Positions 10,231-56,689 of a stretch of 64,000 nucleotides of DNA are shown here, in pieces (the first letter of the stretch is position 1; the number at the start of each line of letters is the position of its first letter). The DNA comes from Octopus vulgaris. Taxonomy: Eukaryota. The notes below the pieces were generated by a model. The model was not told where the DNA came from. It saw only the letters and a program-made list of their open reading frames with translations, and made no database searches. The position numbers were made by a program, and so were the translations under genes. The stretch lies in the NCBI GenBank assembly GCA_951406725.2, contig OX597817.1:174840001-174904000 (forward strand), written 5' to 3'.

Positions 10231-10437
10231 GATTTGTTGTTCCCACAAAGTCATTAAAACTTTCTTGAATATTCTCTCTAAGTATTTCGTTTTGGGATTT
10301 GGTTTGTAAGATTCTTTATATGAGTTCGTGTGTTGAAGCATATTCTGTTGTATCTGGGGAGAGTCATTTTCTTTTTGTGCCTTATATTATAACACACTCA
10401 CCGGTAAAATTTCCACTTATTTCTTATTTTTATTTTC

Positions 10438-10474
10438 CTAAAAGTTTCATTGCATCTTGCAACCTTTTCAATAG
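10438..10474 (-). ncRNA. Minimal type I hammerhead-like motif, U3:A8 core
   Basis: CUA UUGAAAA G GUUGC-AAGAU-GCAAU GAAA CU UU UAG; second copy at 22569. Confidence 0.5.
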
Positions 10475-11819
10475 TCTTGACTCTCTCTAAGTAACTTCCC
10501 TAATTTTAATAGAATAACACTCTTAGTCTTTGTATTGTGCCAGATTTATCACAGATGATTCTATATAAAATGTTCTCAAGATTTTAATATTTCTTGCATA
10601 AATGTTTTTCTATGTAGCCCGTTTTTTATTTTTTAACAAATGATTTTATTAAATTTCAACTCTAATTGATGTAATAGTATTGAACTACAGCCAAGTGAAA
10701 TCGTAGACTTTTCAAGCCAAGTGAAATTGTAGTCGTGGCTGTTGCCATTGTCATGTAAATGGAACCCATGTTGGTGACATGTAAAAAGCACCCAATTCAG
10801 TCTCAGAGTGGTTGGCATTAGGAAGGGCATCCAGCTGTAGAAACTCTGCCAGATCAGACTGGAGTCTGGTGCAGCCACCTGGCTTACCAGTTCCAGTCAA
10901 ACTGTTTCACCCATGCCAGCTTGGAAAACCGACATTAAATGATGATGATGATGATGAATTCCTGTGACATTCTTATAGTTCTATTCTGTAACTTTATTCT
11001 AATTACTTTTCCCCATTCCTTCAAATTTTATCTGTTTCTCAATTTACTCTTTATATTTTTGCCTTCCTCCAATTGTAAATAAGTAAACTGTTCAAGAATA
11101 TACTAGTAAACTGTCACCTGTTTGAACATCTTTGTATATATTAGTCAGTTTATCTCTCCCTGGGTACAAAAGTATACAATAAATCTTTAAATTCTTAAAT
11201 CTGTCAGATGCTCTGAAGACTTACAATAGATCTAACAAATGGACCTCAGAAGACATTGTTTTCATAGTCCATCTACTTTGGTGCTTTTCTGATAGTGAAA
11301 CAATCTACTGTTTAATTTGTTCCCATGATTTTCTAAGCCCCTCCCATTTTCATTATATTTATTTAACTAATTTAGCTAAGTAGATTTGTATTGCATTTGC
11401 ACCAAGTTTTATGAGATGGTTGATGGAAAATTTCTTGTAATATTATATAGTTTTATACACACATTTTTTTATGTGTATAAACTAACATGTTAATTGATGT
11501 AACATTTCCACTAATTATCAAGACGATTGTAACTGATTAATAAATGTAATACTGTAATCTGTATTCCTTTGTTTGCCAATATTTAGACTCTGCATTGGAG
11601 GCAGCGATCTCATAATCAATACGTTTTCCTGAATTTACAGTTCACATGAAATATATTTCTTTGGATTCAATGAATACTAATTCTAATTTTCTTTCCCTTA
11701 TATTCTGTTAGCCTGGTTCTCACATGATTGCAGACTGAAGTACTTGCTTAACTTTCTTAAATTCCTACTTTGTTATAGACATACATACATACATGCATAT
11801 ATATATATAAAGAGAGAGA

Positions 11820-22063: not shown

Positions 22064-22465
22064 GTGGCTGTGTGGTAAGTAGCTTGCTAACCAACCACAT
22101 GGTTCCGGGTTCAGTCCCACTGCGTGGCATCTTGGGCAAGTGTCTTCTGCATAGCCCCGGGCCGACCAATGCCTTGTGAGTGGATTTGGTAGACGGAAAC
22201 TGAAAGAAGCCTGTCGTATATATGTATGTATATATATAAGTGTGTGTATATATGTTTGTGTGTCTGTGTTTGTCCCCCTAGCATTGCTTGACAACCGATG
22301 CTGGTGTGTTTACGTCCCCATCACTTAGCGGTTCAGCAAAAGAGACCGATAGAATAAGTACTGGGCTTACAAAGAATAAGTCCCGGGGTCGATCTGCTCG
22401 ACTAAAGGTGGTGCTCCAGCATGGCCGCAGTCAAATGACTGAAACAAGTAAAAGAGTAAAAGAGT
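22064..22465 (+). mobile_element. SINE family A, young full copy
   Basis: A/B boxes, CORE-like block, CpGs retained, GTAAAAGA tail. Confidence 0.9.
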
Positions 22466-22568
22466 AAGATTCTTTATATGAGTTCGTGTGTTGAAACATA
22501 TGTTGTTGTGTCTGGGGAGAGTCATTTTCTTTTTGTGCCTTATTATGTAACACACTCACCAGTAAAAA

Positions 22569-22605
22569 CTATTGAAAAGGTTGCAAGACGCAATGAAAAT
22601 TTTAG
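22569..22605 (+). ncRNA. Minimal type I hammerhead-like motif, U3:A8 core
   Basis: CUA UUGAAAA G GUUGC-AAGAC-GCAAU GAAA AU UU UAG; palindromic helix III AAUU. Confidence 0.5.
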
Positions 22606-23092
22606 GACAATAAAAATAAGAAAAAAGCGAAAATTTTACCGGTGAGTGTGTTACATGATAAAGCACAAAAAGAAAATGACTCTCTCCAGACACAACAGAA
22701 TTTGAAACAAGGGCTACCTAAAAGTCTGAAAAGAAGCACGGATGTGCAATGGCAAACTTAAGAAAATGCTTTGGTTAACATCTGGGAAATAAAAGTCTAT
22801 TGATGAGAACATCACCTGCCCCTCCTTCTCTTTCGTGTCTTATTCTTCTTTCTCTTCCTCATCATCGTCATCTTCCTCTTCTCCTGCCTCCTTTTCTTCT
22901 TCTTCTCTTCACTCCCTTCCTCTTTCTTAGGCTAACACGTAAACAAATCTTACTGCAGCATCTGCAAGCCACCAATCAGAAAGCTTTGCGAGGATGCAAA
23001 AGTTTAATTTCTGATATGTCATGATTTACAACATGTGTTAGTCTGCAATAGAAACCAAAGCCTGCAATATCGGAAAGTAAAACAAGAAAAAA

Positions 23093-35572: not shown

Positions 35573-36507
35573 CATCATCATCATTGTTTAACATCCTCCT
35601 TCTATGCTAGCATGGGTGGGATGGTTTTACAAGACCTGGCCAGACTTCTGTGACTGTTTTGGCAGGATTTTTACAGCTGGATGACCTTCCTAACACTAAC
35701 CACTTAGCAGAGTGGAGTGCGTGCTTTTAAGTGGCACCTGCACTAACAGGGTCACCAAGTACTTGCAAGACAGAAAAAAGATAAAATCTCGAGAGGGGAG
35801 GTGGCATTGGAGGAGGTAATCTTGTGTTGGATGATGAAAGGTTTTAGTGAGACAGAGAGACAGAAACAGGTGTCTTACTGTAGAAGAAGTACAAAGTTAC
35901 CCAGCCAGAGAGAGAGAGAGAGAGAGAGATTGGTTAGACTAGGTCTATAGCAGAAGACACTTGCCTAAGGTGCAACACAGTGGGATAGAACTTGAAACCA
36001 CATAGTTGCAAAGTGATCCTCTTAACCACATAAACAAAAAAACAGAAGACAGAGACAGGTAAGGAAACACCTGTTGCCTGCACCTATAATCATGTCTTCT
36101 AAAGGATTAAAGCAAGAAATGTTTATAGTTTTGGTAAGTATTTTGAATATTAAAACAAAATGCTCCAACCAGTATGTGAATAAAGTTACAAGTTTCATCT
36201 ATGGTCTACATTTAAAGTATTGCTAATTAAAATGCAATTTTACATTTTAAAGACTGTTAAATGTTATTCTACCTTCTTGACTTAGGAATTTAAAATTCAA
36301 TAACTTACCCATTAGGTGTGGCTGTGTGGTTAGGAAGTTTGCTTCCCAACCACATGGCTTTTGGGTTCGGTCTCACTATGTGACAGCTTGGGTGTCTTCT
36401 ACTATAGCCTCACACTAATCATAGCCTTAAGAGTGGATATGATAGATGACAACTGAAAGAACCCAGTTCTGTATATTATATATATATATATATATATATT
36501 ATTATTA

Positions 36508-36542
<35 letters not shown>

Positions 36543-36618
36543 GCAGCGTGGAAGGTGTTTGTAAGCCATTTAAGGAACACACAAAAGACGTTCAATTCAC
36601 TTTAACATTCAAGTTTAA

Positions 36619-36669
36619 TTTGTCAAAATATTTTCGTTGCTTTAAGACCGCGACCTGTTCACAGACAAA
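36619..36669 (-). ncRNA. Minimal type I hammerhead-like motif, G3:C8 core (left arm)
   Basis: UUUGUCU GUGAACA G GUCGC-GGUCUUAAA-GCAAC GAAA AUAU UU UGACAAA. Confidence 0.5.
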
Positions 36670-36709
36670 AATCCGTGCTGTATCAGATGCAGCACGGATT
36701 TTTGTCAGT

Positions 36710-36760
36710 TTTGTCAGTGAACAGGTCGTGGTCTTAAAGCGACGAAAATATTTTGACAAA
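36710..36760 (+). ncRNA. Minimal type I hammerhead-like motif, G3:C8 core (right arm)
   Basis: UUUGUCA GUGAACA G GUCGU-GGUCUUAAA-GCGAC GAAA AUAU UU UGACAAA; 7-bp helix I, 5-bp helix II, palindromic helix III. Confidence 0.6.
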
Positions 36761-36947
36761 TTAAACTTGAATGTTAAAGTGAATTGAACGTCTTTTGTGT
36801 GTTTCTTAAATGGCTTACAAACACCTTCCACGCTGCAATTGTTTTCGTTTCAGCACACGATCTCAGATCAGATCACTTGCTATGCAAGTACATCTTCATA
36901 ATATTATTATTATTAGATAATAAAATGTATGGAATATTAGCTAAATA

Positions 36948-37007
<60 letters not shown>

Positions 37008-37011
37008 AGCT

Positions 37012-38092
<1,081 letters not shown>

Positions 38093-44663: not shown

Positions 44664-45098
44664 GTATGTTTGTATGTTTATATATACATATATATAGATA
44701 GATATACATATACATATATATACATATGTATGCATATATATATACATATGTATATATATAAATATGTGTATATATATATATAATTTGTTTTTGTTTTTTT
44801 TTAATCTGTGAAACTTGAAGCAAATAGAACTATAAATAACAGCATGTAAATATTGGGTTTAAAAACTCTTTGGACAAGAAAAAAACAAACAAAAGTAACC
44901 TTTGACTTTTTCTATCCAATAGATGTTTAATCCAATATTTACATGTTGTTATTTATAGCTTTGTTTGCTTCAAGTTTCATTGTTCCAAAAATGAATTATT
45001 TTACGATCTGTCTTGCAGTTTCTAAATTCTTATGACGTCAACAATATACATATCTAAACAAACACGCATGCACACAAACACTCACACACACACACACA

Positions 45099-55460: not shown

Positions 55461-55666
55461 ATCAAAATAAGCAACAAGGATATCCAGAGGTAATGCAGTA
55501 CGATTGTTTCATGCAACACCATTTAATTGAACAATGCAATCATTTCATTACATCAATTTAAAATGTAAAATTTATGTAATGAAATGATTGCATTGCTCAA
55601 TTAAATGGAGTCACATGAAACGATCGTACTGCATTACCTCTGGATATCCTTGTTGCTTATTTTGAT
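55461..55666. repeat. ~206-bp inverted repeat
   Basis: ATCAAAATAAGCAACAAGGATATCCAGAGG...CCTCTGGATATCCTTGTTGCTTATTTTGAT; ~93-bp arms. Confidence 0.9.
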
Positions 55667-56075: not shown

Positions 56076-56134
56076 GGTGGTGGTGGGGGGTCGTTTTCCA
56101 TGGGTTTGCAAATGAGATGTGTTTATCAGTGTGT

Positions 56135-56440
56135 GAGTGAAAGAGTGGTGATGAATAAGCACTGAAAGAATATAGGGAATGGTCAAAACAAGATGCTTGA
56201 TTGGGGGTGGAGTTGGGAGGTGGTGGGGTGTTAAAGGAATGTTTTATGAAGCCATTTGAATAGTTGACCTTTGGTAAGAAATATTTGGAAAAACATCTCA
56301 CCAAAGGTCAACTATTCAAATGGCTTCATAAAACATTCCTTTAACACCCCACCAACTCTCAACTTCACCCCCAATCAAGCATCTTGTTTTGACCATTCAT
56401 TATTTTCTTTCGGCACTTATTCATTAACACTCTTTCACTC
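56135..56440. repeat. ~306-bp inverted repeat
   Basis: Arms ~56135-56279 and ~56296-56440 (TTAAAGGAATGTTTTATGAAGCCATTTGAATAGTTGACCTTTGG and its reverse complement). Confidence 0.9.
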
Positions 56441-56689
56441 CCAACCCAAACATACCCAAATCCCATATATAGAATCACAAAACCCCAAACCCTCAGATCT
56501 GTTTTTCTCCACAAAAGTTAACAATGAATGTTTTTGAAAAATCTCACCATCCAAGCTAATAAAGATCTAACTAGATCTACAAACTAAAGTGTAAAATTTA
56601 TATTACTAAAAAATTAAAAAATAATAAATTAAACTGATCAGAACTACCAGTGAAGTCATTCTTTTTCTTTTTTAAAATATATATATATT

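What the first reader, a model, noticed from the sequence alone, without database searches (positions are those of the whole stretch)
36540..36839. 300-bp palindrome carrying two opposed G3:C8 hammerheads
Seen: an almost spacerless palindrome beside (TAT)n. Each arm reads GUGAACA-G-helix II-GAAA-AUAU-UU, closed by UUUGUCA/UGACAAA, with an extra G between A9 and helix II and a UUU triplet. Established: G3:C8 is a functional compensatory swap but uncommon in natural HHRs; inverted pLTRs are a PLE hallmark. Inference: transcription from either strand contains one HHR, but the ~145-bp hairpin would sequester it and provide an ADAR/Dicer substrate.
Basis: partly seen in the sequence, partly recalled or inferred. 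Interest (0 to 1): 0.8.

Follow-up and report, generated by a model that had tools for sequence, protein, structure and literature searches.

The report
Head-to-head Penelope stub, swapped-core hammerhead
The palindrome is one of thousands of stubs left by a Penelope-like jumping gene, likely made when both cut DNA strands each copied the front end of its RNA, and it carries a predicted self-cutting RNA motif in which one core base pair is reversed (G-C instead of the usual C-G).

Summary
Each arm is the 5' leader plus first codons of a Neptune-type Penelope-like element (PLE); long-ORF RT/GIY-YIG parents carry the same G3:C8 motif. Three related PLE families here show C3:G8, G3:C8 and U3:A8 with matching helix changes, so the hammerhead fold is supported; cleavage is untested, and the window's left copy is damaged. 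Inverted pLTR, tail, opposed hammerheads and the extra G are published PLE traits. Added here: one arm nearly always ends at the tail and the other 56 nt inside; clear TSDs peak at 12 bp; arms carry different subfamily alleles in 17 of 60 loci. This fits two priming events on a staggered cut, often from two templates. No support was found for a designed ADAR/Dicer hairpin. The scan noted this family before on other DNA (e1-9517999). New variant of a known kind.

The parts
36540..36683 (-). Inverted arm: PLE leader copy, unit positions about 3-148, ending at the internal AATT site (no tail)
   Evidence: outer ends of inverted arms fall at unit 147-153 in 42 of 61
36619..36669 (-). Damaged second hammerhead copy (innermost helix I pair and one helix II pair lost)
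36683..36684 (.). Head-to-head junction with 2-nt microhomology; junction sequence differs between copies
   Evidence: spanned by an X16 contig
36684..36902 (+). Direct arm: PLE leader from the presumed RNA 5' end through the tail, with a private 9-nt duplication near 36700-36717
36710..36760 (+). Minimal type I hammerhead motif: helix I 36710-36716 with 36754-36760, G3 36717, C8 36722, extra G 36724, helix II 36725-36729 with 36739-36743, GAAA 36744-36747, palindromic helix III 36747-36752, predicted cut after U 36753
   Evidence: covariation across families
36810..36902 (+). First 31 codons of the PLE ORF (open, begins MAYKHLPRC)
   Evidence: the same frame runs on into the PLE ORF in L208, L209, L219, L221; 41% identical to the sister ORF over residues 6-100
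36840..36902 (+). One-sided tail (about 56-60 nt) between the two inferred RT start sites
36474..36542 (.). (TA)n/(TAT)n target; (TAT)n repeats again at about 36902-36914, so the TSD of this copy cannot be delimited
   Evidence: family TSD mode 12 bp

Best explanation
This is a stub of a Neptune-type Penelope-like retrotransposon made of two head-to-head copies of the element's 5' leader, likely written in one insertion when both strands of a staggered cut primed reverse transcription, and each leader carries a predicted minimal hammerhead ribozyme with a reversed G3:C8 core pair. Shown: family membership, the parent ORF, the two 3' end sites, independent 5' truncation, TSD lengths, allele differences between arms, and covariation of the 3:8 pair. 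Inferred mechanism: a dimeric RT/GIY-YIG protein nicks AT-rich DNA about 12 bp apart; one 3' overhang primes at the tail AATT (unit about 206), the other at the internal AATT (about 150); because these sites lie only 150-200 nt from the RNA 5' end (probably a capped start at unit 2-4), both cDNAs are short; their ends are joined by microhomology. In at least about a third of events the two cDNAs come from different template copies, probably two RNAs. The ribozyme would cut weakly, as a dimer through its palindromic helix III and probably with protein help, and uncut RNA is the main template.
For: Family: 1,629 exact tail 27-mers; 6,476 exact core 19-mers, 99 of 100 listed being G3:C8. Parent: long ORFs with RT motifs and GIY-YIG (PF01541 E 1.8e-5; CxxxCxxC linker) end in the same unit, and the unit reads directly into the ORF. 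Asymmetry: of adjacent head-to-head pairs, tail+internal in 13 of 13 (core-selected set), 42 of 54 (tail-selected; 1 tail+tail, 11 with another end), 27 of 29 (similarity set), 7 of 13 (G8 set; 2 tail+tail); no internal+internal pair; long insertions L193, L197, L198, L199 and L290 do the same. Not fold-back: the inverted arm often reaches further 5' than the direct arm (e.g. L035, L043, L071, L085). TSD: 21 of 82 loci give a non-microsatellite TSD, 12 of the 21 are 12 bp, range 9-14. Two templates: multi-base loop II alleles differ between arms in 5 of 31 unselected loci (13.9 expected if independent) and 12 of 29 similarity-selected loci (12.5 expected). 5' ends: 34 of 90 tail arms begin at unit 1-13 (3.4 expected); 23 of 24 arms that stop at the AG of unit 2-3 have a G the parent lacks. 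Ribozyme: sister families have C3:G8 and U3:A8 (21 of 22 motifs) with the same extra G and compensatory helix changes. In vitro precedent: Anolis PAc cuts and extends both strands, has two RT start sites bracketing the tail, is predicted to be a dimer, and its C3G/G8C double mutant partly keeps cleavage (PMC11167929).
Against: Arms are more alike than random arms (4.35% vs 7.0% divergence; summed discordance 179 vs 367 expected). In long young insertions with both arms aligned (L193, L195, L201-L204, L283) the arms share essentially one source haplotype. Many discordant pairs differ only in loop II and agree at other markers, which gene conversion, template switching or one tandem RNA with two different pLTRs could also give. 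9 of 90 tail arms stop at unit 143-156 (3.6 expected, P=0.013), as twin priming on a single RNA predicts. About half of the extra-G cases can be read from the opposite arm, and the upstream context also looks like a splice acceptor. PAc showed no strand difference in start site in vitro. Cleavage: arms beginning at the predicted cut site are barely enriched (25 vs 16 and 16 at neighbouring positions, P=0.063); 223 copies carry an unpaired G3:G8 core; U17 can pair with A14 in the predicted dimer. 23 of 82 loci gave no TSD by script and 38 lie in microsatellites.
Confidence: 0.78

Rival explanations
1. Both arms always come from one RNA molecule (twin priming with strand displacement, or a tandem RNA with two pLTRs), and allele differences between arms arise later by gene conversion or from the two pLTRs of that RNA.
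For: Arms are closer than chance and age markers are mostly concordant; long young pairs share haplotypes; excess of tail arms stopping at the internal site; discordance is often confined to loop II.
Against: Similarity-selected full palindromes are discordant at the independent rate, 12 of 29, and in 11 of these both arms reach unit 8 or less; some pairs differ at several spaced markers (L012, L025, L032, L268); 5 of 6 G8-set loci with both cores differ at position 8. This rival keeps the PLE identity and changes only the number of templates.
Confidence: 0.13
2. The palindrome is itself a non-autonomous unit (hairpin retroposon or retrozyme-like RNA) that is transcribed and re-copied whole, with the hairpin serving to sequester the ribozyme or feed ADAR/Dicer.
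For: A read-through RNA would form a very stable hairpin (-240.5 kcal/mol); 29 near-symmetric copies are easily found; one locus holds a tandem array of at least 7 unit copies (L222).
Against: Centre junctions differ between copies; arm lengths vary independently and 29 of 90 tail copies have no inverted arm; all four allele combinations occur; long ORF-bearing insertions have the same layout.
Confidence: 0.04
3. It is a MITE or fold-back DNA transposon and the hammerhead likeness is accidental.
For: Long inverted arms, small size, high copy number; no Rfam hammerhead match.
Against: One-sided tail, variable 9-14 bp TSD, 5'-type truncation, direct continuity with an RT/GIY-YIG ORF; three Watson-Crick states of the 3:8 pair in related families; 0 descriptor hits in 30 shuffles.
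Confidence: 0.01
4. The motif descends from a hammerhead but is now catalytically dead and kept only as a protein-binding or promoter structure.
For: No clear pile-up of cDNA ends at the cut site; 223 G3:G8 copies; UUU triplet with competing A14-U17 pairing; ribozyme mutants did not affect PAc insertion in vitro.
Against: The 3:8 pair stays complementary in three families, which a catalytic constraint explains best; the core is more conserved than the leader. This rival concerns only the ribozyme and is compatible with the PLE identity.
Confidence: 0.2

Closest known systems
EN+ PLE insertions with adjacent inverted pLTR and one-sided tail (Adineta Pen2a, Drosophila Penelope, Naiad; PMC3846280 parts 1-3 of 5 read, PMC8557442 passages, PMC2377424 passages)
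   Same: Inverted 5'-truncated copy next to a direct one, tail on one side, pLTR holding the first codons of the ORF, TSD around the whole unit, (TA)n bias.
   Different: Here the whole insertion is reduced to two leaders, in thousands of copies; tail 56 nt rather than 30-40; TSD mode 12 bp rather than 8-10; arm alleles allow the templates to be told apart.
Poseidon element PAc of Anolis (PMC11167929, parts 1-2 of 4 read)
   Same: Two RT start sites within the ORF start that bracket the tail; both strands cut and extended; AT-rich targets; hammerhead in the pLTR; uncut RNA as main template.
   Different: PAc has a C3:G8 core and showed no strand difference in start site in vitro; here pairs are nearly always one tail and one internal end. 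Neptune-type linker here.
Minimal type I PLE hammerheads (PMC4209133, part 1 of 4 and passages)
   Same: Extra nucleotide between 9 and 10.1, G10.1-C11.1, palindromic 15.2-16.2, dimer requirement, opposed pairs 100-700 bp apart, natural U3-A8 covariant.
   Different: G3:C8 core; the passages read report only U3-A8 in nature (also PMC3088659 passages) and treat C3G/G8C as a laboratory rescue (PMC8495972 passage, PMC11167929).
L1 twin priming (recalled, no call)
   Same: Second target strand primes internally and gives an inverted 5' part within one TSD pair.
   Different: In L1 the two parts do not overlap; here they usually overlap fully, start at two fixed sites and can differ in allele.

Membership tests
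EN+ Penelope-like element | Single ORF with RT and C-terminal GIY-YIG endonuclease in the parent | tested here: met
   GIY-YIG PF01541 E 1.8e-5 in the 1025-aa frame of L193; RT motifs visible but Pfam RVT_1 only E 0.052; Atlas neighbours at 0.97-0.98 carry RVT_1, HTH_animal, GIY-YIG. No parent ORF lies in the window.
EN+ Penelope-like element | pLTR includes the first codons of the ORF | tested here: met
EN+ Penelope-like element | One-sided tail and adjacent inverted 5'-truncated copy | tested here: met
EN+ Penelope-like element | Target-site duplication around the whole unit | tested here: met
   21 of 82 loci with clear 9-14 bp TSD; this copy sits in (TAT)n, so its own TSD is ambiguous
EN+ Penelope-like element | Spliceosomal intron in the pLTR | tested here: inconclusive
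   Acceptor-like context upstream of the unit in all parent-type copies listed; no splice joint in four contig sets
Neptune clade | CX2-5CxxC linker between RT and endonuclease; microsatellite targeting | tested here: met
   Linker seen in the L194 and L201 translations (definition from PMC8557442 passage); 38 of 82 loci in microsatellites
Neptune clade | Placement in an RT tree with named Neptune elements | not tested
   No named reference sequences were fetched; no tree built
Hammerhead ribozyme, minimal type I | Core nucleotides with a Watson-Crick 3:8 pair, G12-A13-A14, A15.1-U16.1, H17 | tested here: met
   Right arm; 3:8 covaries C:G, G:C, U:A across three families; left arm has the core but broken helices
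Hammerhead ribozyme, minimal type I | Helices I and II, palindromic helix III for dimer formation | tested here: met
   the predicted dimer duplex over-extends into A13/A14
Hammerhead ribozyme, minimal type I | Match to an Rfam hammerhead model | tested here: not met
   No hammerhead family at E<=10; the fold call rests on the descriptor and covariation instead
Hammerhead ribozyme, minimal type I | Site-specific self-cleavage | not testable with these tools
   Indirect genomic test inconclusive: 25 vs 16 and 16
MITE / fold-back DNA transposon | Symmetric terminal inverted repeats at both ends, fixed TSD, constant internal part | tested here: not met
Non-LTR retrozyme | Tandem 170-400 nt monomers giving circular RNA | tested here: inconclusive
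   Copies are dispersed and head-to-head; one tandem array at L222; circular RNA not testable

The most novel reading that the evidence does not exclude
These stubs are a genome-wide record of how PLEs integrate: a dimeric enzyme holds two leader RNAs, possibly paired through the hammerheads' palindromic helix III, cuts DNA 12 bp apart and copies one RNA from the tail site and the other from the internal site, so inverted pLTRs and one-sided tails are the normal product of a two-RNA, ordered double priming. The family also supplies an active natural G3:C8 hammerhead.
Probability: 0.35. Interest if true: 0.72.

Novelty: new variant of a known kind. Interest (0 to 1): 0.47.

Why it matters
How PLEs make their inverted repeats and one-sided tails, and what their hammerheads do, are open questions. 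This family gives thousands of small natural products with built-in allele markers, a sharp 12-bp TSD mode and a strict tail/internal asymmetry, plus young long-ORF parents, so one-RNA and two-RNA models can be tested directly. It also gives a natural series of C3:G8, G3:C8 and U3:A8 cores in related elements. The single locus in the window is an ordinary, partly decayed copy.

Tried and rejected
Rfam scans of the window and of 36400-36940 gave only hairpin/microsatellite miRNA look-alikes below gathering scores. Expression: no RNA holder listed for the unit; 15 of 21 runs are RNA by guess only. Contigs of four guessed-RNA runs cover the unit but show no splice joint at the acceptor-like site; two guessed-RNA runs have no cover on the unique flank 36000-36279, and one A>G difference in one contig cannot be assigned to this locus; none of this counts for or against transcription or editing. 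A shared spliced first exon upstream of the unit was sought and not found. A peak of cDNA ends at the predicted cut site was not established. C3:G8 copies within this family were not seen (0 of 100 listed). Luense et al. on PLE hammerhead variants could not be read and may already list G3:C8. A PDB search failed on a frame slip and was not repeated. Assembly artefact and MITE readings were rejected. A sequence look-up in earlier findings returned nothing.

Full report
Observation. The window reads as a palindrome from 36540 to 36839, with 3 substitutions in the outer 123 nt, one more mismatch near the centre and a 9-nt duplication in the right arm. The left-arm copy has lost the innermost helix I pair and one helix II pair and fails the descriptor. 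Rfam gives no hammerhead match. An 81-nt contig of run X16 matches the centre, 36651-36728, without a difference, so this is not an assembly fold-back.

Family. A DNA search gave 2,892 first-look candidates, 40 scored. Exact patterns give 1,629 tail 27-mers and 6,476 core 19-mers, 99 of 100 listed being G3:C8; 223 more have G3:G8 and none of 100 listed has C3:G8. All 29 distinct best copies continue about 60 nt past the palindrome in a shared tail, and their centres differ. I number a 206-nt unit from the C at 36684. For a sample not chosen on 5' structure I took the first 30 tail-pattern loci and 60 of the next 70 listed (one C1 place and the last nine C2 places were left out). Of these 90, 61 have an inverted arm upstream; its outer end lies at unit 147-153 in 42 of 61, and inner ends of both arms vary independently.

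Parent. Following the longer copies upstream led to RT and GIY-YIG coding sequence. A young subfamily has open frames up to 1,025 aa and ends in the same unit with the same G3:C8 motif (GIY-YIG E 1.8e-5; RVT_1 only E 0.052). The linker has the CX2-5CxxC form that PMC8557442 gives for Neptune (passages); no tree was built. In L208, L209, L219 and L221 the unit runs straight into the ORF, and 36810-36902 translates to its first 31 codons. So each arm is the element's 5' leader plus ORF start, that is the pLTR and tail. Both 3' end sites fall at AATT. No parent ORF lies in the window.

Is the hammerhead real? Among 144 arms of the 90-locus set the 12 core positions mismatch in 19 of 1,139 letters, the leader in 172 of 5,989 (P=0.02; without CpG 12 of 1,039 vs 137 of 5,494, P=0.006), loop II in 170 of 837. 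Stronger evidence comes from relatives. A sister family (54% identical over 814 aa) has, at the same place before its ATG, C3:G8, the same extra G and compensatory changes in helices I and II. A third family, with stubs in this window, has U3:A8 in 21 of 22 motifs from 20 loci. Three Watson-Crick states at 3:8 are what a hammerhead core predicts. Activity is untested. Against strong activity: a UUU triplet, a predicted dimer duplex that extends into A13/A14, the 223 G3:G8 copies, and only 25 arms starting at the predicted cut site against 16 and 16 at the neighbouring positions (P=0.063).

How the palindrome forms. Adjacent head-to-head pairs are one tail end plus one internal end in 13 of 13 core-selected pairs (24 loci after dropping 6 duplicates; 11 had no adjacent pair), 42 of 54 tail-selected pairs (1 tail+tail, 11 with another end), 27 of 29 similarity-selected pairs and 7 of 13 G8 pairs (2 tail+tail, 4 with another end); no internal+internal pair was seen. 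Long insertions repeat the layout. Of 82 loci (8 long ones left out), 21 give a non-microsatellite TSD of 9-14 bp, 12 of them 12 bp; 38 lie in microsatellites and 23 gave none. The inverted arm often extends further 5' than the direct arm, which excludes simple fold-back of one cDNA. 34 of 90 tail arms begin at unit 1-13 against 3.4 expected; of 84 arms with an intact start only 8 run 9 nt or more into the parent's upstream sequence, and 23 of 24 that stop at the AG of unit 2-3 carry a G the parent lacks, about half of them explainable from the opposite arm. I infer a capped RNA start there; the context also resembles a splice acceptor. This matches the Anolis PAc protein, which cuts and extends both strands, starts RT at two sites bracketing the tail and is predicted to be a dimer (PMC11167929, parts 1-2 of 4).

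One template or two. Two multi-base loop II alleles differ between the arms in 5 of 31 unselected loci (13.9 expected if independent) and 12 of 29 similarity-selected loci (12.5 expected); in 11 of those 12 both arms reach unit 8 or less. In the G8 set 5 of 6 loci with both cores differ at position 8. Against: arms are closer than random (4.35% vs 7.0%), other markers are mostly concordant, discordance is often limited to loop II, long young pairs share haplotypes, and 9 of 90 tail arms stop near the internal site (3.6 expected, P=0.013), as twin priming on one RNA predicts. The simplest reading is a mixture: two priming events always, two different template copies in at least about a third of cases. 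Gene conversion and a tandem RNA with two pLTRs are not excluded.

The ADAR/Dicer idea. A read-through RNA would fold into a long hairpin, but nothing here shows such an RNA, and a transcript starting at the centre would hold one arm only, in which helices I and II form freely. The hairpin is best read as a by-product.

Comparison with what is known. Inverted pLTR, one-sided tail, ORF start within the pLTR and TSD are described (PMC3846280, parts 1-3 of 5; PMC8557442 passages; PMC2377424 passages). The extra nucleotide, palindromic helix III, opposed pairs and U3-A8 are described (PMC4209133, part 1 of 4 and passages; PMC3088659 passages; PMC6765202 passages; PMC11722881 passages). I found no natural G3:C8 family in two searches or in those passages (PMC8495972 and PMC3884650 passages treat it as an engineered variant), and no two-template account in the listings of searches; searches listed no study of this family. 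The paper most likely to list such variants (Luense et al.) was not held, and no supplements were read, so priority is uncertain. The scan's own note e1-9517999 describes another copy of what appears to be this family with a 12-bp TSD (seen after my analysis); its hint of cleavage is only weakly matched by my count.

Verdict. Real feature; a partly decayed copy of a Neptune-type PLE leader stub. New variant of a known kind. Interest 0.47, carried by the natural 3:8 series and by the testable record of asymmetric double priming.

Noticed in passing
window 10287-10500 (minus) and 22451-22697: Stubs of a third related PLE family (ORF start 68-74% identical to the sister ORF); its hammerhead has a U3:A8 core in 21 of 22 motifs, 2,606 first-look candidates, and the same head-to-head layout.
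   Followed up: partly
L201-L204 (e.g. G000:C15:42993441-42997376): Very young sister PLE family with 1,311-1,312-aa open frames, canonical C3:G8 but C at position 9, two 3' end sites and frequent inverted pairs.
   Followed up: partly
L222 (G000:C28:4996400-4997939): Tandem array of at least 7 leader units (about 4-150) spaced by (TA)n, which would put hammerheads in cis for dimer cleavage.
   Followed up: no
genome-wide, e.g. L231-L250: 223 copies with an unpaired G3:G8 core, some on both arms of one palindrome (L250), suggesting a source with a probably dead ribozyme still spread.
   Followed up: partly
window 55461-55666, 56132-56443, 44809-44979: Further palindromes (92%, 89%, 79% arm identity) without the hammerhead descriptor; family unknown.
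   Followed up: no
window 36320-36475 and 37010-37170: Two copies of a high-copy SINE-like repeat flank the element; the stub sits in the (TA)n/(TAT)n run behind the first. The SINE label is recalled.
   Followed up: no
window 56893 (minus); L281:4564-5148; L282:4958: Other minimal hammerhead-like motifs of different families (U3:A8 and C3:G8 types).
   Followed up: no
L088 and L098: Two loci share 146 nt of identical downstream flank yet differ upstream, so they may not be independent insertions.
   Followed up: no
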